IMG/VR virus record: IMGVR_UViG_3300005253_000946
Length of the DNA stretch: 64,000 nt
Reading direction: 5' to 3' (one strand)
DNA from: a virus
The notes below the pieces were generated by a model. That model ran no database searches, was not told the origin of the DNA, and worked only from the letters and a program-made list of their open reading frames with translations. Below are positions 55,575 through 63,923 of the stretch, piece after piece (position 1 is the stretch's first letter; every line of letters begins with the position of its first letter). The translations under genes and the position numbers were made by a program.

Positions 55575-57569
55575 TTAAGGTTGAGTATCTATAAGACAAG
55601 CATCGCCGTCGCAGAACTTATCTGTCAACTCGTGTGCTTGTAGTTTAGATATGTTTAACGGCTTAATCTTTGATACTAGACCCTCATAAGCCTCTTTGTC
55701 TATAGTTATATAGGGTGCTTGAGGATAACCATGATCTTCTAGAGGAAGTAGAGAAACAGATTTTAGACTGGTTTCGTACATAGACAAAGCCATCGCTAGT
55801 TGACACGCTTCCTCCGGTTTAACTGTAATAGTTACACTCACTTGGTTGTCTGACCAGTATCTTTGAATACTCGCTACAAGTTCGAACTGTTCCCAAATAG
55901 TAACATCGCTCTTTGACTTAGAGAAATACTCTTCGTGAACCGGGAAGGATACTACTATCGTATTGTCATTCTGTATTGATGGTTCTACCGGGTATCCTGC
56001 TTCTGTTAAATGAGGCAAGATAGGGGAGAACTTATCGAATCTGACATTACGAAGGTAGTATTCTGAGTGTGGATGGTGTACTCCAGGTGTCGCTCCTACT
56101 AGTAAGCTGATAGTCCCACTAGGTTTCACACTTGTCCTTTTGATCGATGTAGGTACTCCGAGCCACCTTGAGTAGATCTTGTCCAACTCTGTTAAGTAAT
56201 CATAACCCTGATCTAAACTATTCATCAGGTTTCGAAACTTAAACTTCTGTATTCCCTGAACTATCCCTGATGGAGCAGTTCCTATCCTACGATTTCTTCC
56301 TATGACAGCGTTTGTTTTAGGATTGTGTGTAGGAATTAGAGTTACGGATTTGGCGTAAAGGTATGCAAATTTGAGAGTCTCTTGCATATCTTCTAAAGAA
56401 TCGTGCTTGAAGGGGTAGAACTCTACTAGGCAGCATAATTCGCCGTCCTCTAGAGATTGCTCTCCGCAAGGGTTCTGGCCGTCTACAAATATATCCCAAT
56501 CACCCCAGCCATCTTTCATCCGGCCGTAATGACGAGCGTTCTCTAACCAGAAGAAGCTTGGTTCTCCGTTAGCCATTATTCGTGGTACGAATGGCTCATA
56601 GTCCATCCCTATTGTAGCGAAGTTACAATTATTAGATGCCCAGCGATAATCCTTAAGCTCATCAGGAAACAGATCGGGGTTCTTTAGATTGTTAAACTCT
56701 ATGTCTTCTGGGAATCCTAACATTAACTCAGCTGTACGCCTGATACCTCCGGCGACCACACATTTGCCTATGTAGTTAAACAGGTCGACGATGAGGGTAG
56801 ATGTAACATCCTTACCTATATAGCTAGTCAGCATCTTTATGACGGTGTTGTGGAGATCTTCTAGAGGCTCTGGACCAGAAGCTATGCCGCCGAAGGACTT
56901 GAGAGGCATCCCGGCTTTCCGTACTTTAGAGTAATCGAATCCTGCTGGTAGTTTGGCTCCTGCACCACCGAAAGCATCAAGTATTATTTCTACAGACGCT
57001 ACCCAGCCTTCTCTAGAGTCTTCTACTACAAAGATCTCCTCTGAGTGTGCTGGTTCATGCATCTTAGTAGTCCCTGCACCTCTGGTATCGCTTCCTACGC
57101 CTACCCCTAACATACTCATGTCCATAAGGAATGTGAATGGGTAGGAGAAGTGTTTTCTGATGGTTTTGGTGCTGATAAAGCCACAGTTATTGAGGGAAGC
57201 AGCTCCTCGTTCCTCTACATATTTAGTCCCCATAGCCCATAAGCCTCTACCAGGAGGTAAAAATTTCATTGTGAAGATCAAGTCGTACATCTTCTGAGCA
57301 GATATCTGGCCTTTATTATAATTGAATTCTAGATTGAATTTGGAGCAATGTAGTATCTGTGCATAATAAGCCCCCTCTACTACCCTCTTTATAGTTTCCC
57401 ACCACTCTTCAAACTTACCGTCTTCTTTCTGCCTAGAGTATGTTCTCTTGTATACCACTCCTCCTAGTGCATCGTAGCCCCATTGCGGTTTCCTCCGTTT
57501 GTAAGGTGTCAAAAACGCATCCGTCAATACCAGCCGCTTAGGTGCTGTCATTCTATAGTGTCCTTTCAT
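55575..57569 (-). CDS. nrdJ: Class II (adenosylcobalamin-dependent) monomeric ribonucleotide reductase
   Basis: FLPPGRGLW, SLNNCGF, NPCGEQSLE, LCCLVE, VKPSGTISL motifs; no intein visible. Confidence 0.95.
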   Translation of the reverse strand: MKGHYRMTAPKRLVLTDAFLTPYKRRKPQWGYDALGGVVYKRTYSRQKEDGKFEEWWETIKRVVEGAYYAQILHCSKFNLEFNYNKGQISAQKMYDLIFTMKFLPPGRGLWAMGTKYVEERGAASLNNCGFISTKTIRKHFSYPFTFLMDMSMLGVGVGSDTRGAGTTKMHEPAHSEEIFVVEDSREGWVASVEIILDAFGGAGAKLPAGFDYSKVRKAGMPLKSFGGIASGPEPLEDLHNTVIKMLTSYIGKDVTSTLIVDLFNYIGKCVVAGGIRRTAELMLGFPEDIEFNNLKNPDLFPDELKDYRWASNNCNFATIGMDYEPFVPRIMANGEPSFFWLENARHYGRMKDGWGDWDIFVDGQNPCGEQSLEDGELCCLVEFYPFKHDSLEDMQETLKFAYLYAKSVTLIPTHNPKTNAVIGRNRRIGTAPSGIVQGIQKFKFRNLMNSLDQGYDYLTELDKIYSRWLGVPTSIKRTSVKPSGTISLLVGATPGVHHPHSEYYLRNVRFDKFSPILPHLTEAGYPVEPSIQNDNTIVVSFPVHEEYFSKSKSDVTIWEQFELVASIQRYWSDNQVSVTITVKPEEACQLAMALSMYETSLKSVSLLPLEDHGYPQAPYITIDKEAYEGLVSKIKPLNISKLQAHELTDKFCDGDACLIDTQP

Positions 57570-57765: not shown

Positions 57766-58776
57766 ATGCCAGCACAAGTCGAATCAATGATGTTTGCGGG
57801 GGAAACGCCGTGGCATCGAGAAGGTGTTTACGTAGGAGATCACAACCTGACTTCAGAAGGAGCTATTGTCAAAGCAGGATTGGACTGGGAAGTAGAGCAA
57901 GTACCTTTTTACACAATGGAGCTTAAGGCTCATACTGGACCCAAATCTGATGTAGAGTTCAATTCTCCTGCAGGGTCTCCAGAGATATTTAACGCTAAAG
58001 AAGTTGAAGGTCTAAAAATAGTTCGTCGTGTTAGAGACAAGAACGTCTATGGGGTCTTTACTGATGCTTACGAGCCTTTACAAAATAGAGACGCTTTCGG
58101 GTTTATAGATAGTCTGGTAGAGACCGGTGGAGTTACTATCCATACTGCAGGATCGCTCCAGGGCGGTAAGAGGGTTTGGATATTAGCCAAGCTTCCTAAT
58201 GTAATGGAAGTCCTTAGAGATGATATAGTAGATAAGTATCTCCTCTTCGCTAACTCTCACGACGGGTCTTTAGCTGTAACGGCTCTATTTACTCCTATAA
58301 GAGTAGTATGTTGTAACACACTGTCTTTGGCTCTGAGCAGTAGGGATAAGGCTAGGACCGTTAAATTTCGACACAGTAAAAACGTTATGGAGAAAGTCGA
58401 AGAGGCTAAAAATATTCTAGGGATTGCCAATCAAGAGTTTGAAAAGTCTTTAGAGATGTATAAAGCTTTTGCGGTTAAGCAGATGAACTTCTCCAAGTTA
58501 CAGTCTTTTGTAGAGGAGTTATTCCCTAAACTAGAAGACAAAGAAGAGGCTTCTACGAGAACACAGAATATCCGTAATAAAGTTCTTAAACTACACGAAG
58601 ACGGTATAGGGACAGATATTGCTGGTGTCAGGGGAACAGGATGGGGTGTCTACAACGCGGTTGTAGAGTACGCAGACTTCGAGCGTGGCCGAGACAGTTC
58701 TAGATTGAACTCAGCTTGGTTTGGGTCTGGTGCCCAATTAAAGAGTAGAGCTGCACAGCTATTGGCTGCTGCTTAG
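57766..58776 (+). CDS. DUF932 family phage/plasmid protein
   Basis: ETPWHREG...GLDWEV...YEPLQNRDAF...TAGSLQGGKRVW...NSHDGS...TPIRVVCCNTL. Confidence 0.9.
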   Translation: MPAQVESMMFAGETPWHREGVYVGDHNLTSEGAIVKAGLDWEVEQVPFYTMELKAHTGPKSDVEFNSPAGSPEIFNAKEVEGLKIVRRVRDKNVYGVFTDAYEPLQNRDAFGFIDSLVETGGVTIHTAGSLQGGKRVWILAKLPNVMEVLRDDIVDKYLLFANSHDGSLAVTALFTPIRVVCCNTLSLALSSRDKARTVKFRHSKNVMEKVEEAKNILGIANQEFEKSLEMYKAFAVKQMNFSKLQSFVEELFPKLEDKEEASTRTQNIRNKVLKLHEDGIGTDIAGVRGTGWGVYNAVVEYADFERGRDSSRLNSAWFGSGAQLKSRAAQLLAAA

Positions 58777-59351: not shown

Positions 59352-59573
59352 ATGAGACTAGACGGACCGTCTAAAAAATTAGCTGAGACGTTACAAAAAG
59401 AGGCCCAAGATAACCAAAAGGTTTCACAGACTACTGCTGGGTATAATGATTCAGGTGAGATTAATAAATGCTCTACGTGTAAAACCTTTAAAGCACCTAA
59501 CTCCTGTACAGTTGTGTCAGGGATTATTTCTCCAGAGGGAACTAGCGATCTCTACTCTCCAAAAACAGAATGA
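59352..59573 (+). CDS. HiPIP-like (high-potential iron-sulfur protein) domain protein lacking the fourth Cys
   Basis: Y...KCSTCKTFKAPNSCTVVSGIISPEGTSDLY; HiPIPs have GWC where this has GTS. Confidence 0.6.
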   Translation: MRLDGPSKKLAETLQKEAQDNQKVSQTTAGYNDSGEINKCSTCKTFKAPNSCTVVSGIISPEGTSDLYSPKTE

Positions 59574-59598
59574 GTCAATACTTTTGACTCTCTAATCC

Positions 59599-59626
59599 CT
59601 TATAACAGTAAACGTCTAATGATTTC
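59599..59626 (-). promoter_or_regulatory. Putative phage promoter GAAATC-N16-TATAAG
   Basis: Matches the motif family. Confidence 0.5.
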
Positions 59627-59798
59627 AACGTAATTTTTTTGTCTTACCGCTGCTAGCGTTTACACTATGTAAGTAGCCACTTAACAATTTCGTGTTTAGA
59701 TCAGTTACTCTCTTACGACGCTTTAGGTATAGTAATAGTTTAACAAAGCAGTAGACTCCTGCCAGGGATAGTATAACTATTACCGTACTGTTACTCAT
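59625..59798 (-). CDS. 57-aa single-pass membrane protein, last gene of the ubiquitin-like operon
   Basis: MSNSTVIVILSLAGVYCFVKLLLYLKRRKRV...; ATGA overlap with the ThiF stop; not in the ORF track. Confidence 0.6.
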   Translation of the reverse strand: MSNSTVIVILSLAGVYCFVKLLLYLKRRKRVTDLNTKLLSGYLHSVNASSGKTKKLR

Positions 59799-60472
59799 AC
59801 GACAAATTCTTTGACCATTTGCTGATTGAAGAAATCTACCATCAATCTTTTGTCGGACTCTTCTAGTCCTCCCATTAAAAACTTCTTTACCAACCTAGCT
59901 ATAGGTTGAGCGATACCTAATACTGTATAGATAATCGCCTGCGCAGTGCAAGGGAGTTCTTCAGCCTCGTCATCGTTGAACAAAGTCTTTTCGTACTCTT
60001 CAACGTCTAGTTGATCGGAAGGCCGTAATGTAAATATCTGCGCTACCTCACCACCCATTCTAGAGTCTATGTAGAGTTCTACCTCTGACTGAGTTCTGAC
60101 CATGTCGAAGATTGCCTGCCGTGATTTCATAGAATCCACTGCACTGATGACTATACCCGACAGATTCTCGTCCTCATACCGTTTGTTGTTAATTTTGATA
60201 TCGAAGTCAGTAAATTCTTTAACAATGTCTGCTAAAGCCTCTACCTTAGACCTTCCAATATCCTTCTTGCGAAAGAATTGGTTTGGCAGGTTATGAAGCT
60301 CTACAGTGTCATCGTCGAAAATTTGCATACGACTTGCGCCCATTTTAGCTAAGGCCAGGGTTGCGAATGAACCTATACCTCCGACTCCGATGACGGTGAT
60401 TCGCTGCTTTTGGAGTTTGTCGTTGTCAATGAAGTCATGTTGACGCCAGTATTCTCTTTGGTCTCGTTGCAT
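59795..60472 (-). CDS. E1-like / ThiF-family adenylyltransferase
   Basis: VIGVGGIGS, DDDTVELHNLPNQ, SKVEAL, AVDS; candidate catalytic Cys in ELPCTAQ; no Zn-binding CxxC pairs. Confidence 0.92.
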   Translation of the reverse strand: MQRDQREYWRQHDFIDNDKLQKQRITVIGVGGIGSFATLALAKMGASRMQIFDDDTVELHNLPNQFFRKKDIGRSKVEALADIVKEFTDFDIKINNKRYEDENLSGIVISAVDSMKSRQAIFDMVRTQSEVELYIDSRMGGEVAQIFTLRPSDQLDVEEYEKTLFNDDEAEELPCTAQAIIYTVLGIAQPIARLVKKFLMGGLEESDKRLMVDFFNQQMVKEFVV

Positions 60473-61503
60473 ATGTCTTTCCCTTCTAATCTTTGTAGCT
60501 CGTTTTCCATAAATCTGAGCATTGTTGTCGCCGTTTCAAATTTAATTACTTCGGCCTCTTGTAAAATCCTGATGGTGGCTACTATATATCCATTGAGTAA
60601 AGCGTATACAGCCCGTTCAGGGTCATCGGAGTACGCAAGAACTGTTTCACTCAGATACTCTTGAAGCTTTTCAGGTAACCTATCAAACAGACTGAACTCT
60701 GTTTTATTATGGATACCATCTAGAGGAACTGGCAGATTTGTAGTGTCTATTAGAACAGGCAACACATCACTCATGTCGGAATCTTCGTCAATAGTAAATT
60801 CATCAATCATGTCGGAATCTTCGTTAGGAGGCCAGACTTGATCTACAGGTTTGGTGGGGTGCGAAGTAGTTGGAGGTTTTGCAAACCCAGCAGCTGTTTT
60901 CGGTTTAAACTGTTTAGCAGCTGCAGCTCTTTGTTTCCAAGTACCTCCGTAACCATAATACTGGAGATAATCGTCTGCGAAAAAATCTTCCTTTACTTTC
61001 AATTTGTACTCCTCTGTATACCTTTCAGTGTCCTCAATAGGGATGTCTGGGTGTATTACATAGTCAAGATTGTCGCAGTTTATTTTAAACGGATCCCATG
61101 CATCTATTCGTAATTTGTATGATCCTAGAGAGTTGACTACCAAGGAGATAAACCAAGGCAGATAGCTCATAGAATTTATGGTCGAATTATCTTGACCACT
61201 CCAGAAGGTGCCAGTAGTCCCATGACTATGCCACCAGAATCGTAGATCCTCAGTAGGTATATCTTTCTTGTTTAAGTCAGCCATTAGTTTCATAACTTCC
61301 TGCTCATCTAGGTCACTGTCAGCAGAAGTCACTTTTTGTTTAAGCAGGAAAACGGCATAGACTTCAAACACTGACCCTACTTTTTTGACAAGACCTATAC
61401 CTGACACTTCGTTTGGAGACGATAGTCTCGTCCATAAAGATATTTTGGCCAGAACTGAAGACCATACTTTTATCATAGGTACTGTTACACTTATATTTTT
61501 CAT
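60373..61503 (-). CDS. JAB/MPN metalloprotease (Prok-JAB) with a long C-terminal extension
   Basis: EVSGIG...WWHSHG..GTFWSGQD JAMM motif; start MKNISV with AAAGGA RBS; overlaps ThiF by ~100 nt. Confidence 0.88.
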   Translation of the reverse strand: MKNISVTVPMIKVWSSVLAKISLWTRLSSPNEVSGIGLVKKVGSVFEVYAVFLLKQKVTSADSDLDEQEVMKLMADLNKKDIPTEDLRFWWHSHGTTGTFWSGQDNSTINSMSYLPWFISLVVNSLGSYKLRIDAWDPFKINCDNLDYVIHPDIPIEDTERYTEEYKLKVKEDFFADDYLQYYGYGGTWKQRAAAAKQFKPKTAAGFAKPPTTSHPTKPVDQVWPPNEDSDMIDEFTIDEDSDMSDVLPVLIDTTNLPVPLDGIHNKTEFSLFDRLPEKLQEYLSETVLAYSDDPERAVYALLNGYIVATIRILQEAEVIKFETATTMLRFMENELQRLEGKDICNETKENTGVNMTSLTTTNSKSSESPSSESEV

Positions 61504-61516
61504 ACTAGTTGTTCCT

Positions 61517-62908
61517 TTAGTCGCGGTCATAGTCGCTGTCTTCCCAAGGATCTCCTCCAGAATCATCCCATTCTATATAACGATCCACCTCTTTATTCTC
61601 TAATGACTTGTCCCACAAAAGTGCAGGAGCATACCAGCTAGGTGGGTAGATTGAGTCTAGATACCGATCCATAAACATCACTATCTGATATAGATCGCCT
61701 TCTTTTAGGAAATGAGATATCTCAGAGAGATTATCTCCCCAACAAGGATCTCCTCCTCCTGTTATGTGAGGATGTATATAATGTTCACCACTCCAGCGTT
61801 TAGTATCTGAATAGGATCCTACTTTAATAGTCTTTCTATCCAGATCTATCATAATTTCAAAGGGACCCCATTCTAATCTGAAGTCACGGCCGAAATCGTT
61901 AGAATCCCATGCCCAATGTATTATTCTGGCACGTGTCTTTAATTTACAGACAAGAGAACCACTGTGGTGAGATGTTCCTATGGAAATAGAGGTAAACTTC
62001 TTTGGCACAAAATCTCTGGCGATCTTCTTGATGATATCTTTAACCATCTGTTGGTGCTGGTGTCTGCTTACTGATGTTAGATACTTGTTTTGTATTTCGA
62101 TACCTCTTATTTTTGAGAATATATCTCTCGCCTCGTTCTGTAGATGTAAGACTTTGTTTCTGCTGTCATATAACATTTGAGTGTTTTCATTAACAGTTTT
62201 TTGTAGTTGGTCCCATTTTTGTCTCTCAAACTTCTTACCCATGTTTGCCACTAGGTAATCATTAACTAGTCTAGGAGGGTTTAGTGTTGAGTATCTTAGA
62301 CGAATAGGTATGTCTCTAGTAAAAAACTGATTTAGAGGCATATCGAAGTCCCCAACTACCAAATCGTCTAGATACGCTTCTAGTAAGTTTCCGTTCTCAT
62401 GGATTTTTTTTAAACTATTTGAGAACACGTACCCTAAGTGCCCACTTCGATTATTTGTGTAACTCATAAGAAGGTCTAGGGGTGTATATAAAATAACAGT
62501 ACTAGTTAAGGTGTCTACCCAACCGGCCTCATGGTTGGGTCCATTATTTTTGAGGTATATTCTTAGGCGGTTATCTTGGTGATCAGCGCCTTCACAGTAA
62601 TCTTCTGAGAACAACATACAGCAATGTGGGTATTGGATTTCGTGTTCTCTTACTCTAAAACGGTAGCAGTCCATGTTGTACTCGTTTTCGAATACATAGT
62701 CTCCACCAAAATTTTGGTATGGTGGGTATTTATTGCTGTCACAGGACATCGGAAAATTTATAGTCATTCCGGTAAAAGATCCAGAAGATCGAATACTGTC
62801 TAAAACTGATGTACCCCAAGGCAGGTCGACAGAACTTTCTACAGCCATGAAAGGAATATTAGGAAATTTTTCTCTGATACTCGCCGGTAATATGCTAGTG
62901 ACATCCAT
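61517..62908 (-). CDS. Prokaryotic E2-like conjugating-enzyme domain fused to a coiled coil and an N-terminal domain
   Basis: HPHITGGGDPCWG (E2-type HPH...C active-site segment); start MDVTS with GGAG RBS. Confidence 0.75.
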   Translation of the reverse strand: MDVTSILPASIREKFPNIPFMAVESSVDLPWGTSVLDSIRSSGSFTGMTINFPMSCDSNKYPPYQNFGGDYVFENEYNMDCYRFRVREHEIQYPHCCMLFSEDYCEGADHQDNRLRIYLKNNGPNHEAGWVDTLTSTVILYTPLDLLMSYTNNRSGHLGYVFSNSLKKIHENGNLLEAYLDDLVVGDFDMPLNQFFTRDIPIRLRYSTLNPPRLVNDYLVANMGKKFERQKWDQLQKTVNENTQMLYDSRNKVLHLQNEARDIFSKIRGIEIQNKYLTSVSRHQHQQMVKDIIKKIARDFVPKKFTSISIGTSHHSGSLVCKLKTRARIIHWAWDSNDFGRDFRLEWGPFEIMIDLDRKTIKVGSYSDTKRWSGEHYIHPHITGGGDPCWGDNLSEISHFLKEGDLYQIVMFMDRYLDSIYPPSWYAPALLWDKSLENKEVDRYIEWDDSGGDPWEDSDYDRD

Positions 62909-62960
62909 CTTGTGTAGTCTCCTTTGATAGATAGGTCTAAAGTTTAAGTGAGTTTTGGTC

Positions 62961-62996
62961 ACGGTGTGAGCGCCTAAAAGTAGACGCTCACACCGT
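62961..62996 (-). promoter_or_regulatory. 12-bp perfect hairpin between the Ubl and E2 genes (no U-tract on the coding strand)
   Basis: ACGGTGTGAGCG/CGCTCACACCGT. Confidence 0.65.
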
Positions 62997-63042
62997 TAAA
63001 CAATAATCAATAAGTCACGAGAGACAGAGCGTGTAGCTAAAT

Positions 63043-63261
63043 TTAAGCTACAAGACCCGCCTTCATTTTACCGGAGACGTAGAGTTCGCAATCCTCAGTT
63101 AGAGGTGAGGCTAATGTGACAGCCTCACCGTCGATAGAAAGGGATTGACCATCCGTAGGGATGCTGGCCTTGTTGAGAGCGTCTTCGACTGTTTGGCCGG
63201 ATTCGAGTTCAACAACCTGTTTATCGCTTCCGAACCTGTGTATAGTTACTCGCACGTGCAT
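63043..63261 (-). CDS. Ubiquitin-like beta-grasp protein (ThiS/MoaD/Ubl) with C-terminal KAG-LVA
   Basis: VRVTIHRFG...VVELESGQTVEDAL...SIDGE...LYVSGKMKAGLVA; GGAGG RBS; first gene of the E2-JAB-E1 operon. Confidence 0.8.
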   Translation of the reverse strand: MHVRVTIHRFGSDKQVVELESGQTVEDALNKASIPTDGQSLSIDGEAVTLASPLTEDCELYVSGKMKAGLVA

Positions 63262-63398: not shown

Positions 63399-63923
63399 AT
63401 GCCGAATCCAGACAGCCATCTGACAAATATAATAAATAGTAAGCTGGACAGTTTAACCCTGGCGCTAACCGATCTGGTTGTTACTGCTGAAGAGTTAGAC
63501 GGAACTGGTGTCGGTCCTTACGGTCCTGCAACCAGCCTCCCGATACAAGCAGGTTCTTACATTGCTTATGACGGAGTAACTCCTTTAGTAGAAACTACTA
63601 ACTACACCATAGTCACTGCTACAGGTCTGTTAACTTTCACTCCAACCTATAATGGTGGTCTCGGCCCTATAGGTATAGTCACTTTGGATTATTCTGTGTC
63701 TCCAGCGACATTAGATGACTCTAACCTCTTCCCTGTTTCGCAAGCCAATAGTGTTCAGGTAGTTATAGCTGTAAAGGACGGAGTTTGGGACCAAGCTACA
63801 TTCGATCAGTATGTAGCAGATGTTACTACGATCCAAGGCAGTCCCTACCTGACTGGCGACCAAGTGCAGATACTGCAATATCATTTAGACGACATTAATG
63901 CTGCCGCCGCATTAGTCTTTTAA
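63399..63923 (+). CDS. Hypothetical beta-rich protein, possibly structural
   Basis: Thr/Gly/Val-rich, ETTNYTIVTATGLLTF motif; TTGCGT-N17-TATTTT promoter 6 nt upstream of the ATG. Confidence 0.65.
   Translation: MPNPDSHLTNIINSKLDSLTLALTDLVVTAEELDGTGVGPYGPATSLPIQAGSYIAYDGVTPLVETTNYTIVTATGLLTFTPTYNGGLGPIGIVTLDYSVSPATLDDSNLFPVSQANSVQVVIAVKDGVWDQATFDQYVADVTTIQGSPYLTGDQVQILQYHLDDINAAAALVF

What the first reader, a model, noticed from the sequence alone, without database searches (positions are those of the whole stretch)
59625..63261. Complete ubiquitin-like conjugation operon in a phage (Ubl, E2, JAB, E1, membrane protein)
Seen in sequence: five co-oriented genes encode a beta-grasp Ubl, an E2-like protein with HPH...C, a JAMM protease (HSH...S..D), a ThiF/E1 with a candidate catalytic Cys, and a coupled 57-aa membrane protein. 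Established: bacterial E1-E2-JAB-Ubl operons exist, and some (Bil, CBASS Cap2/Cap3) act in anti-phage defence. Inference: here the phage owns the whole cascade, so it could tag host defence or virion proteins, or act as a decoy or de-conjugase against host Ubl defence. The E2 carries a long coiled coil and an unknown N-terminal domain that could select substrates.
Basis: partly seen in the sequence, partly recalled or inferred. Interest (0 to 1): 0.87.

Follow-up and report, generated by a model that had tools for sequence, protein, structure and literature searches.

The report
Phage-encoded ubiquitin-like protein-tagging cassette
A 175-kb uncultured tailed phage carries its own four-gene ubiquitin-style tagging kit (tag, activating enzyme, carrier enzyme, trimming protease) from an undescribed family common in phages and other mobile elements; such kits have so far been studied only as bacterial anti-phage defences, and its target is unknown.

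Summary
On the minus strand of 59625-63261 lie five co-oriented, tightly packed genes in an IMG/VR virus record of 174,885 bp.

Four of them form a conserved cassette:
- A SAMP2/ThiS-like pro-Ubl that ends Ala-Gly plus an LVA tail.
- A 463-aa protein whose C-terminal domain has a UBC/E2 fold, with HPH-x7-Cys aligned on the E2 HPN-x7-Cys active site.
- A JAB protease with an intact E...HxH-x7-S-xx-D motif.
- A 225-aa ThiF-type E1 whose conserved Cys175 aligns with E. coli ThiF Cys184.

The same four genes recur together in all 7 metagenomic contexts I checked. They also recur in most of 35 IMG/VR contigs, and in integrated mobile elements of Myxococcales MAGs. No fifth gene is conserved, so the 57-aa membrane protein is a local passenger.

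No Pfam, NCBIfam, PADLOC or PHROG model recognises the Ubl or the E2. For the JAB, only Pfam's generic Prok-JAB model matches, just over its cut-off. The cassette fails the defining features of Bil, CBASS Cap2/Cap3 and PRTRC. I found no paper describing it.

The conjugation cascade is well supported. Its target and purpose (counter-defence, host takeover, self-modification or exclusion of rival phages) are untested.

Earlier notes of this scan report phage Ubl cassettes of this kind on other DNA.

The parts
63043..63261 (-). Pro-Ubl, 72 aa. SAMP2/ThiS-like beta-grasp that ends K-M-K-A-G69 followed by L-V-A.
   Evidence: Strong GGAGG Shine-Dalgarno sequence. The family profile A4 hits SAMP2 5lda_B at E 1.3e-7, plus ThiS and MoaD, with the C-terminal GG aligned. 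The homologue in L004 passes the Pfam ThiS cut-off. Homologues end K-G-G plus 1-2 residues. Gly69 is invariant.
62961..62996 (-). 16-bp RNA hairpin between the Ubl and E2 genes, with no T-run after it. It sequesters the alternative GTG start at 62962.
   Evidence: strand folding on 62900-63050: z = -4.05, and 0 of 200 shuffles fold as well. The sequence is shown.
61517..62908 (-). E2-like protein, 463 aa. Orphan N-terminal region (residues 1-212, window 62273-62908), long helix (213-300, 62009-62272) and UBC-fold domain (276-463, 61520-62083).
   Evidence: AAGGAG Shine-Dalgarno sequence before ATG 62908. No Pfam, PHROG, PADLOC or NCBIfam hit. AF2 model of residues 276-463 with a 28-sequence alignment: pLDDT 79.8, pTM 0.75. 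VIA-align against 48,161 chains: most of the top 50 are UBC E2s or UBC-fold relatives (UEV, RWD), best Z 7.9 with 132 residues aligned. Foldseek PDB hits are nearly all E2s, with probability up to 0.87.
61742..61774 (-). E2 active site H379-P-H-I-T-G-G-G-D-P-C389 (HPH-x7-Cys).
   Evidence: Coordinates checked. The profile-versus-PDB sequence search aligns HPH with HPN and the Cys with the position of the catalytic Cys of UbcH5B (best hit, E 0.028). His379, Pro380, Cys389 and Gly391 are invariant across the family.
60373..61503 (-). JAB/JAMM metalloprotease, 376 aa from ATG 61503 (the ORF is open from 61566). N-terminal MPN+ domain, then a low-complexity acidic linker and a helical C-terminal region.
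   Evidence: Prok-JAB 27.4 bits. Best PDB relative is the Rpn11-like protein 6fjv at E 7e-6. The Glu32, H92-S-H94, S102 and D105 motif lies at 61183-61236 and 61396-61422.
59795..60472 (-). Minimal ThiF-type E1, 225 aa. Its start overlaps the 3' end of the JAB gene by 100 nt.
   Evidence: ThiF 82.1 bits. PDB hits include PaaA, Uba1, ThiF, UBA5 and MoeB. The GxGGxGS loop, N-terminal Arg, Lys and Asp are conserved. Cys175 (59948-59950) is conserved in 7 of 7 phage E1s and aligns with E. coli ThiF Cys184.
59625..59798 (-). 57-aa single-pass membrane protein. Translationally coupled to the E1 gene (ATGA overlap) but not a conserved member of the cassette.
   Evidence: Hydrophobic segment at residues 5-25 and a basic tail. 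Downstream small ORFs in related loci are unrelated and not membrane proteins. No fifth conserved gene cluster was found.
59572..59590 (-). Terminator-like hairpin plus T-run after the last gene.
   Evidence: Pattern scan only. The number of such sites in the region is no higher than in shuffled sequence.

Best explanation
This is a self-contained four-gene ubiquitin-like protein-conjugation cassette of an undescribed family carried by phages and other mobile elements.

Proposed mechanism:
1. The 72-aa SAMP2/ThiS-like protein is made as a precursor. The JAB protease removes the L-V-A tail to expose Gly69. This step is inferred from the GG+1-2-residue tails across the family and from known pro-Ubl processing.
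2. The minimal, presumably homodimeric, ThiF-type E1 adenylates Gly69 and takes the Ubl onto Cys175. This is inferred; Cys175 aligns with ThiF Cys184.
3. The Ubl moves to Cys389 of the UBC-fold domain of the 463-aa E2. The fold and active-site alignment are shown; the transfer itself is inferred.
4. The E2 has a hypervariable N-terminal region and a long helix, which would choose the target. It would ligate the Ubl to a target lysine without a separate E3. This is inferred.
5. The JAB can also reverse the conjugation.

The cassette sits among early, nucleotide-metabolism and replication genes here, and beside replication, recombination and anti-restriction genes in related elements. My best guess is therefore that it acts early in infection on host proteins, as counter-defence or host takeover.

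I put about 0.75 on a genuine conjugation cascade. Within that, I put about 0.4 on a host-directed role.
For: - **All four parts are present with intact catalytic residues.**
- **UBC fold of the E2 domain.** AF2 model with pLDDT 79.8. Two independent structure searches are dominated by E2s. A sequence-profile search has UbcH5B as best hit with the active sites aligned.
- **Motif conservation.** HPH-x7-C is invariant except one His (>=90%) in 27 homologues found by HMMER without any motif filter.
- **Synteny.** The order Ubl, E2, JAB-sized gene, ThiF is seen in 7 of 7 looked-up contexts.
- **Wider occurrence.** Of 39 IMG/VR motif hits, 35 carry the E2 domain, and 18 carry all four genes within the fetched stretch. 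Exactly four gene clusters are conserved (E2 in 36 loci, JAB 32, E1 27, Ubl 22) and nothing else occurs in more than 3 loci.
- **Pro-Ubl tails.** Ubl C-termini are K-G-G plus 1-2 residues in most homologues.
- **Variable targeting region.** The N-terminal regions of 76 E2-like proteins fall into 35 BLAST clusters, and the window's is a singleton.
- **Mobile-element context.** Neighbours are nrdJ and DUF932 here, ArdC-N/MPTase-PolyVal in L009, and Rad52-like, PD-(D/E)XK, relaxase, coupling protein and primase genes in Myxococcales MAGs.
- **No sulfur-transfer partner.** The phage has no PP-loop thiolase or PAPS-reductase-like gene.
Against: - Nothing is experimental.
- Each structural match alone is middling (Z <= 7.9, Foldseek E >= 0.027). 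Pfam UQ_con does not hit the protein.
- The E1 clade lacks the otherwise near-universal Arg of the NLQRQ ATP-binding motif (NLPNQ here). It also has no ubiquitin-fold or other recognisable E2-docking domain.
- The Ubl has Ala-Gly rather than Gly-Gly, and its fold was inferred from profiles, not modelled.
- The N-terminal half of the E2 and the C-terminal 225 residues of the JAB have no assignable fold.
- No target is known. The same biochemistry would fit a defensive or a self-directed role.
Confidence: 0.7

Rival explanations
1. The biochemistry is the same but it is aimed at the phage's or element's own proteins. The Ubl would be attached to replication, transcription or virion proteins to regulate or assemble them, as lambda-type phages use a Ubl and a JAB in tail assembly.
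For: The cassette lies next to replication and nucleotide-metabolism genes here and in crAss-like phages, FpV4 and jumbo phages. There is precedent for a Ubl plus JAB in phage tail assembly (PMC1779556).
Against: The cassette moves between unrelated phage backbones and integrative elements that share no other gene. This argues against a fixed self-target. The hypervariable N-terminal region looks more like an arms-race interface.
Confidence: 0.2
2. It is a defence system carried by the phage or element (superinfection exclusion). Like Bil, it would tag a structural protein of a competing phage.
For: All characterised bacterial E1/E2/JAB/Ubl operons are anti-phage systems (10.1101/2023.09.04.556158; PMC11601596). 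The family also occurs in integrated elements of Myxococcales, at 2-4 copies per MAG.
Against: No PADLOC model matches the Ubl, E2 or JAB. Most carriers are viral contigs of 10-190 kb. The gene lies in an early-gene block of a large, apparently lytic phage.
Confidence: 0.15
3. It is a sulfur-carrier pathway. The ThiS-like protein would be adenylated and thiocarboxylated by the ThiF homologue for thiolation of a tRNA, DNA base or cofactor, with the JAB as maturase and the Cys protein as a sulfur relay.
For: The Ubl family is closest to SAMP2, ThiS and MoaD, and the E1 is closest to ThiF and MoeB. E1 Cys175 aligns with ThiF Cys184. The phage carries many tRNA genes (another agent's note).
Against: Sulfur-carrier systems do not use a UBC-fold partner with a classical HPN-like active site. 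No PP-loop thiolase or PAPS-reductase-like gene is in the phage. No rhodanese or cysteine desulfurase is conserved with the cassette.
Confidence: 0.07
4. It is a decaying or non-catalytic remnant. The genes would be kept only as binding proteins, for example a decoy Ubl or a stand-alone de-conjugase against the host's Bil or CBASS systems.
For: The E1 lacks the canonical ATP-contacting Arg. The JAB alone could reverse host Ubl conjugation.
Against: The catalytic residues of all four proteins are conserved across very divergent homologues of 15-30% identity. Tight four-gene linkage is maintained.
Confidence: 0.05

Closest known systems
Bil (BilABCD, Type I/II; operon class 6d of Iyer et al. 2006), a bacterial ISG15-like anti-phage system
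   Same: It has the same four-part inventory: Ubl, E2, JAB peptidase and E1. Some BilA homologues also carry short C-terminal overhangs after the conserved Gly (10.1101/2023.09.04.556158).
   Different: The characterised BilA has two fused Ubl domains, and BilD is a large IAD-AAD-CYS E1 (PMC11601596). Here the Ubl is a single 69-aa beta-grasp and the E1 is a single 225-aa adenylation domain. Class 6d E2s lack the classical His (PMC1779556), whereas this family keeps HP(N->H). No PADLOC model matches. The carriers are phages and mobile elements, not defence islands.
Eukaryote-like Ub/E1/E2/RING/Rpn11 operon of Caldiarchaeum subterraneum (PMC3082918; PMC5654768)
   Same: It has a classical-type E2 active site (HPN-x7-C style). 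The JAB's best solved relative is an Rpn11-like protein (6fjv), which from memory is from this archaeon. The modifier there is also a precursor that needs JAB trimming (from my own knowledge, not checked here).
   Different: The modifier here is SAMP2/ThiS-like, not ubiquitin. The E2 is not recognised by Pfam UQ_con. The E1 is minimal. There is no separate RING E3, although 15 of 26 homologues carry a Cys-rich tail after the E2 domain.
Archaeal SAMP/UbaA/HvJAMM1 and Thermus TtuB/TtuC systems
   Same: They share a SAMP2-like modifier, a ThiF-size E1 and a JAMM protease (PMC4443979).
   Different: Those systems have no E2 and double as sulfur carriers. This cassette always includes a UBC-fold protein.
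UBA5-UFC1-UFM1 (minimal non-canonical E1 with an E2)
   Same: It has an E1 without a separate catalytic Cys domain, paired with a stand-alone E2. UBA5 is among the E1's PDB hits, and a UFM1-conjugating enzyme appears among the fold matches (3kpa).
   Different: The UBA5 architecture and its C-terminal E2-binding tail are from my own knowledge, not checked here. No such E2-docking element is recognisable in this E1. The similarity is analogy only.
PRTRC cassette of plasmids and ICEs (NCBIfam TIGR03734-03742)
   Same: It is a mobile-element-borne cassette with a ThiF-family protein. The lead came from an earlier scan note.
   Different: Only the ThiF model hits, at 49.9 bits against a cut-off of 144.75. 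No PRTRC model matches the Ubl, E2 or JAB.
Type II CBASS Cap2/Cap3
   Same: It has E1, E2 and JAB chemistry. PADLOC Cap2 'E1-E2' models hit the Rossmann part of the E1.
   Different: Cap2 is an E2-E1 fusion that conjugates a CD-NTase, with no free Ubl. Here the genes are separate, a Ubl is present, and no CD-NTase is nearby.

Membership tests
UBC/E2 fold superfamily | alpha/beta UBC fold: N-terminal helix, antiparallel sheet, then C-terminal helices | tested here: met
   AF2 model with pLDDT 79.8. Most of the top 50 VIA-align matches are E2, UEV or RWD proteins, best Z 7.9, rmsd 3.9 A, 132 residues aligned, covering model residues 1-162. Foldseek hits are nearly all E2s.
UBC/E2 fold superfamily | HPN-type motif followed 7-8 residues later by the catalytic Cys | tested here: met
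   HPH-x7-C at residues 379-389. It aligns with the HPN...C stretch of UbcH5B in a profile search. The first His, the Pro and the Cys are invariant across the family; the second His is >=90% conserved.
Pfam UQ_con (PF00179) and Pfam Prok-E2 families | Score above the curated cut-off | tested here: not met
   No E2 family is reported for the protein at E <= 0.1. PF00179 finds nothing in the whole phage at E <= 1.
JAMM/MPN+ metalloproteases | E ... HxH-x7-S-xx-D zinc site | tested here: met
   Glu32, H92, H94, S102 and D105 (numbering from ATG 61503) are conserved in all homologues complete across the motifs. Prok-JAB scores 27.4 against a cut-off of 25.
E1/ThiF/MoeB adenylating enzymes | Rossmann GxGxxG loop, N-terminal Arg finger, conserved Lys and Mg-binding Asp | tested here: met
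   ThiF scores 82.1 bits. These residues are visible in the alignment with E. coli ThiF.
E1/ThiF/MoeB adenylating enzymes | Arg of the N-L-Q-R-Q ATP-phosphate motif | tested here: not met
   The motif is NLPNQ here, and the position is V, P, G or N in the six related phage E1s.
E1 enzymes that form a thioester | Catalytic Cys at the crossover-loop position | tested here: met
   Cys175 is conserved in 7 of 7 phage E1s and aligns with ThiF Cys184. Its chemistry was not tested.
Ubl modifiers (ThiS/MoaD/SAMP) | Beta-grasp domain ending in a conserved Gly used for activation | tested here: met
   Profile A4 hits SAMP2 at E 1.3e-7 end to end. Gly69 is invariant. The fold itself was not modelled.
Bil (BilABCD) | [quoted passage not shown] | tested here: not met
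   The E1 is 225 aa with a single adenylation domain. The Bil architecture is taken from PMC11601596.
Bil (BilABCD) | Recognition by defence-system HMMs | tested here: not met
   PADLOC gives no hit for the Ubl, E2 or JAB. For the E1, all 25 listed hits (of 32) are Cap2 'E1-E2' models.
PRTRC cassette | PRTRC proteins A-F and ParB, with PRTRC_ThiF above its cut-off | tested here: not met
   Only TIGR03736 hits, at 49.9 bits against a cut-off of 144.75. Nothing matches the other proteins.
Type II CBASS Cap2/Cap3 | E2-E1 fusion with an adjacent CD-NTase | tested here: not met
   The E2 and E1 genes are separate. No CD-NTase is among the conserved neighbours.

The most novel reading that the evidence does not exclude
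Phages and other mobile elements use their own ubiquitin-like ligase as a weapon. The UBC-fold protein would act as an E2-E3 hybrid whose fast-evolving N-terminal domain recognises a host protein, such as an immune sensor or effector, or a nucleoid or replication factor. It would inactivate that protein by Ubl conjugation early in infection, mirroring what eukaryotic viruses do with ubiquitin and inverting the Bil defence.
Probability: 0.3. Interest if true: 0.9.

Novelty: new variant of a known kind. Interest (0 to 1): 0.7.

Why it matters
Prokaryotic ubiquitin-like conjugation has been characterised only on the cellular side, as immunity (CBASS, Bil and probably Bub) and in archaeal sampylation. 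A compact, widely mobile phage-side cascade would show that both parties in the phage-bacterium conflict use protein tagging.

It has three unusual features:
- A classical HPN-like E2 active site.
- A 225-aa E1 that lacks any known E2-docking domain.
- A target-recognition region that differs in almost every carrier.

It would also offer the smallest E1-E2 pair known for studying how transthiolation works without a Cys domain or a ubiquitin-fold domain. Most family members end K-G-G, so trypsin would leave the same Gly-Gly remnant as ubiquitin. The protein of this window would leave Ala-Gly. Targets are therefore directly discoverable by standard remnant proteomics. Possible distant versions in crAss-like gut phages, and a domain match in cultured Xanthomonas and Erwinia jumbo phages, make the question experimentally reachable.

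Tried and rejected
- **Word-based searches for the E2 protein.** The search for homologous proteins returned only the protein itself. The exhaustive HMMER scan was needed.
- **Searches against GenBank phages.** blastn and tblastn with the whole locus, the JAB and the E2 found nothing. Only the E1 finds relatives.
- **Single-sequence AF2 of the full 463-aa protein.** The model was useless (pLDDT 35). The N-terminal 212 residues therefore have no fold assignment. The Atlas's own model is also poor (pLDDT 0.51).
- **The search for related loci with alignment A3.** I replaced it with a back-translated motif scan. That scan selects for the motif, so motif conservation in those loci is not independent evidence.
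- **crAss-type upstream protein (crAss001 gp78) as the same E2 family.** My HMM does not hit it. hhalign gives a probability of only 7.9%, although Y-M-H-S-H...P-C-x-G lines up with the family motif. I left this as inconclusive.
- **PRTRC, Bil and CBASS membership.** All were rejected on curated models or architecture.
- **Membrane protein as a fifth component.** Rejected.
- **BLASTP of the Ubl against E. coli ThiS.** No alignment was found.
- **BFVD fold search.** It returned only unnamed phage proteins.
- **Literature.** Seven searches found no description of a phage-encoded E1-E2-JAB-Ubl cassette. Asgard virus 'Nidhogg' is reported to have E1-like genes only.

Full report
**Where the window comes from.** The window is the reverse strand of bases 15801-79800 of a single-contig IMG/VR virus record of 174,885 bp, estimated 95% complete. 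The record encodes a tail-sheath protein and a PolA-type DNA polymerase. Earlier notes of this scan describe it as a contractile-tailed phage from marine sediment with a single-chain RNA polymerase (only the tail sheath was checked here). GC content is about 0.40 throughout, so the region is not a compositional island.

**Gene layout.** Five ORFs lie head to tail on the minus strand.
- The Ubl gene (63261-63043) has a GGAGG Shine-Dalgarno sequence.
- The E2-like gene has AAGGAG before ATG 62908. The alternative GTG at 62962 sits inside the 3' arm of a 16-bp hairpin (62961-62996; z = -4.05). The 463-aa form is therefore the likely product.
- The JAB ORF is open from 61566, but ATG 61503 has an AAAGGA Shine-Dalgarno sequence just after the E2 stop codon.
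- The E1 gene starts at 60472, 100 nt inside the low-complexity 3' end of the JAB gene.
- The 57-aa ORF overlaps the E1 stop by ATGA. A terminator-like hairpin follows it.

**The E1.** The 225-aa protein scores 82 bits on Pfam ThiF. It matches PaaA, Uba1, ThiF, UBA5, MoeB and MccB structures.
- Aligned with six related phage E1s and E. coli ThiF, it keeps the GxGGxGS loop, the N-terminal Arg, the Lys and the Mg-binding Asp.
- Its Cys175 is conserved in all seven and falls on ThiF Cys184. From established knowledge, that residue forms the covalent link with ThiS.
- It lacks the zinc CxxC pairs of ThiF. Like its whole clade, it also lacks the Arg of the NLQRQ motif.
- Every NCBIfam hit is far below its cut-off.

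**The JAB.** The protein passes Pfam Prok-JAB (27.4 against a cut-off of 25). Its closest solved relatives are an Rpn11-like protein (6fjv, E 7e-6) and proteasomal Rpn11/PSMD14. The complete Glu/HxH-x7-S-xx-D site is conserved in the homologues. About 225 further residues have no match: an Ala/Pro/Lys-rich linker, acidic D-S-D-M repeats and a helical end.

**The Ubl.** On its own it gives only a weak SAMP2 hit (E 0.005). Aligned with the small proteins that precede the E2 gene in four related loci (A4), the profile hits Pyrococcus SAMP2 (5lda_B) at E 1.3e-7 over its full length. It then hits ThiS and MoaD, with the terminal Gly-Gly aligned. One homologue passes the Pfam ThiS cut-off.
- Across 23 viral homologues the C-terminus is typically V-K-G-G followed by one or two residues. 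Some end K-G-A.
- The window protein ends K-M-K-A-G69-L-V-A, and Gly69 is invariant.
- A tail after the activating glycine is the usual sign of a precursor that a peptidase must trim.

**The E2.**
- *Sequence searches.* The 463-aa protein has no hit in Pfam, PHROGs, PADLOC, NCBIfam or PDB sequences. An exhaustive HMMER scan of 1.8 billion representatives found 27 remote relatives at 13-27% identity. All of them match only residues about 320-440. Gly348, His379, Pro380, Cys389 and Gly391 are invariant in them. The family motif is H-P-H-[VI]-x3-G-x2-C-W-G.
- *Model and fold searches.* AF2 on residues 276-463 with this alignment gave pLDDT 79.8 and pTM 0.75. The order of elements is helix, six strands, loop, then helices. 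Without Foldseek pre-filtering, VIA-align against 48,161 chains returned a top 50 made up mostly of UBC E2 enzymes and UBC-fold relatives (UEV, RWD). The best was Z 7.9, rmsd 3.9 A, 132 residues. Foldseek's PDB list is likewise nearly all E2s, with probability up to 0.87. Each score alone is middling. The consistency of the lists is what carries weight.
- *Independent profile check.* An HMM of the alignment searched against PDB sequences has UbcH5B as its best hit (E 0.028). HPH aligns on HPN, the Cys aligns on the Cys of UbcH5B's HPN...C motif (its catalytic residue, from memory), and the alignment continues through the next helix.
- *Conclusion.* I conclude that the domain has a UBC fold with a classical-type active site. 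The bacterial class 6d (Bil) E2s, by contrast, lack that histidine (PMC1779556).

**Is it a system?**
- The seven contexts I could look up all show a small ORF (63-76 aa), the E2-like gene, and then a JAB-sized gene. A ThiF gene follows in the three contigs long enough to show it.
- A back-translated motif scan of IMG/VR gave 39 loci. Of these, 35 have the E2 domain by my HMM, and 18 have all four genes within the fetched stretch.
- Clustering all same-strand ORFs within 4 kb gave exactly four conserved clusters: E2 in 36 loci, JAB in 32, E1 in 27 and Ubl in 22. No other cluster occurs in more than three loci.
- Gene order varies in a few loci, but the four genes stay together.
- The downstream small ORFs are unrelated to one another, and none of the four examined shows a long hydrophobic segment on inspection. 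The membrane protein is therefore not part of the system.
- Each of the four genes is single-copy in this phage.

**Who carries it.**
- The viral contigs range from 10 to 190 kb.
Thirty had the E2 domain and 22 matched strongly.
- Seventeen of those 22 come from seven uncultured Myxococcales MAGs, with 2-4 copies each. None came from isolates.
- In two of these MAG loci the neighbours are a Rad52-like recombinase, a PD-(D/E)XK nuclease, a replication-relaxation protein, a TrwB-like coupling protein and a DnaG-type primase. These mark integrated mobile elements.
- In L009 an ArdC-N/MPTase-PolyVal anti-restriction gene lies upstream.
- In the window the neighbours are nrdJ and a DUF932 gene.
- The E1 clade also occurs in crAss-like phages (crAss001 gp76), Flavobacterium FpV4-like phages and Xanthomonas/Erwinia jumbo phages. 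There it follows a JAB protein and a ~430-aa protein beside primase, UDG or topoisomerase genes.
- The 892-aa protein of Xanthomonas phage PhiXhv-12 contains the E2 domain (E 1.8e-5). For the crAss-type protein the relationship is only suggestive.

**Variable and constant parts.** The regions N-terminal to the UBC domain of 76 family members fall into 35 BLAST clusters. The window's is a singleton. Fifteen of 26 motif-independent homologues carry at least two CxxC pairs after the E2 domain. The window protein has an acidic tail instead. This pattern of a constant catalytic core with exchangeable flanks is what a specificity module would show.

**Mechanism and purpose.**
- The shown facts are the four folds or families, the intact catalytic residues, the pro-Ubl tails and the strict linkage.
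- The inferred steps are JAB maturation, E1 adenylation and thioester formation at Cys175, transfer to E2 Cys389, E3-independent ligation guided by the N-terminal region, and reversal by the JAB.
- A sulfur-carrier role is unlikely. A UBC-fold partner is always present, and no thiolase, rhodanese or desulfurase is linked to the cassette.
- The data cannot decide whether the target is host, self or rival phage. Mobility among unrelated elements, early-gene and anti-restriction neighbourhoods, and the hypervariable region make a host-directed role my first choice, at about 0.4 given a real cascade.

**Comparison and novelty.** The closest known systems are Bil, the Caldiarchaeum Ub operon, SAMP/UbaA/JAMM, UBA5-UFC1, PRTRC and CBASS Cap2/Cap3. 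The cassette works like Bil but fails Bil's defining architecture and HMMs. It also fails PRTRC's curated models and CBASS's fusion and CD-NTase features. Seven literature searches found no description of a phage-encoded E1-E2-JAB-Ubl cassette. Earlier notes of this scan report cassettes of this kind in other phages; 987 notes hold the search words. Within the scan this window is therefore one more instance, not a first sighting. I rate it a new variant of a known kind.

Noticed in passing
window 62961-62996 (minus strand): A perfect 16-bp hairpin lies between the Ubl and E2 genes and has no T-run after it (z = -4.05). It may be an mRNA-stability or attenuation element that sets a high Ubl-to-enzyme ratio. 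It also buries the GTG at 62962.
   Followed up: partly
P0002-P0028 and loci L018-L056: More than half of the family (15 of 26 motif-independent homologues) carry two or more CxxC pairs after the UBC domain. This may be a built-in zinc finger or RING-like element. The window protein has an acidic tail instead.
   Followed up: partly
L007 (crAss001 gp78-gp77-gp76), L002 (bajarodcaudo virus 1), L003 (Flavobacterium phage FpV4): crAss-like and FpV4-like phages have a conserved triad beside primase and UDG: a ~430-aa protein with a Y-M-H-S-H...C-x-G motif, a ~400-aa JAB and a ThiF-type E1. No obvious small Ubl gene is present. The link to the window's E2 family is only suggestive (hhalign probability 7.9%).
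   Followed up: partly
L006:2280-4958 (Xanthomonas phage PhiXhv-12; the same E1 is in Erwinia phage Ep032): An 892-aa protein next to ThiF in cultured 227-kb phages contains the E2-like domain (I-H-P-H-M...C-L-G, E 1.8e-5). Pfam recognises no JAB nearby. This is a tractable experimental system.
   Followed up: partly
L057, L074 and 15 further loci from seven uncultured Myxococcales MAGs: The four-gene cassette occurs 2-4 times per MAG. It lies beside Rad52-like, PD-(D/E)XK, relaxase, coupling-protein and primase genes, which suggests integrated mobile elements.
   Followed up: partly
window 60275-60295 (E1 residues 60-66): The whole phage E1 clade has lost the Arg of the N-L-Q-R-Q ATP-binding motif (N-L-P-N-Q here). 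It also lacks ThiF's zinc CxxC pairs.
   Followed up: partly
window 60373-60472: The E1 start codon lies 100 nt inside the JAB ORF. The JAB tail encoded there is low-complexity Ser/Thr/Glu.
   Followed up: no
window 57766-58776 and 55575-57569: A DUF932 protein (194 bits; phrog_1221) and a B12-dependent ribonucleotide reductase flank the small-gene block next to the cassette. L009 has an ArdC-N/MPTase-PolyVal gene upstream of its cassette.
   Followed up: no
window 63399-63923 (plus strand): A divergently transcribed 174-aa ORF has no hit in Pfam or PHROGs.
   Followed up: no
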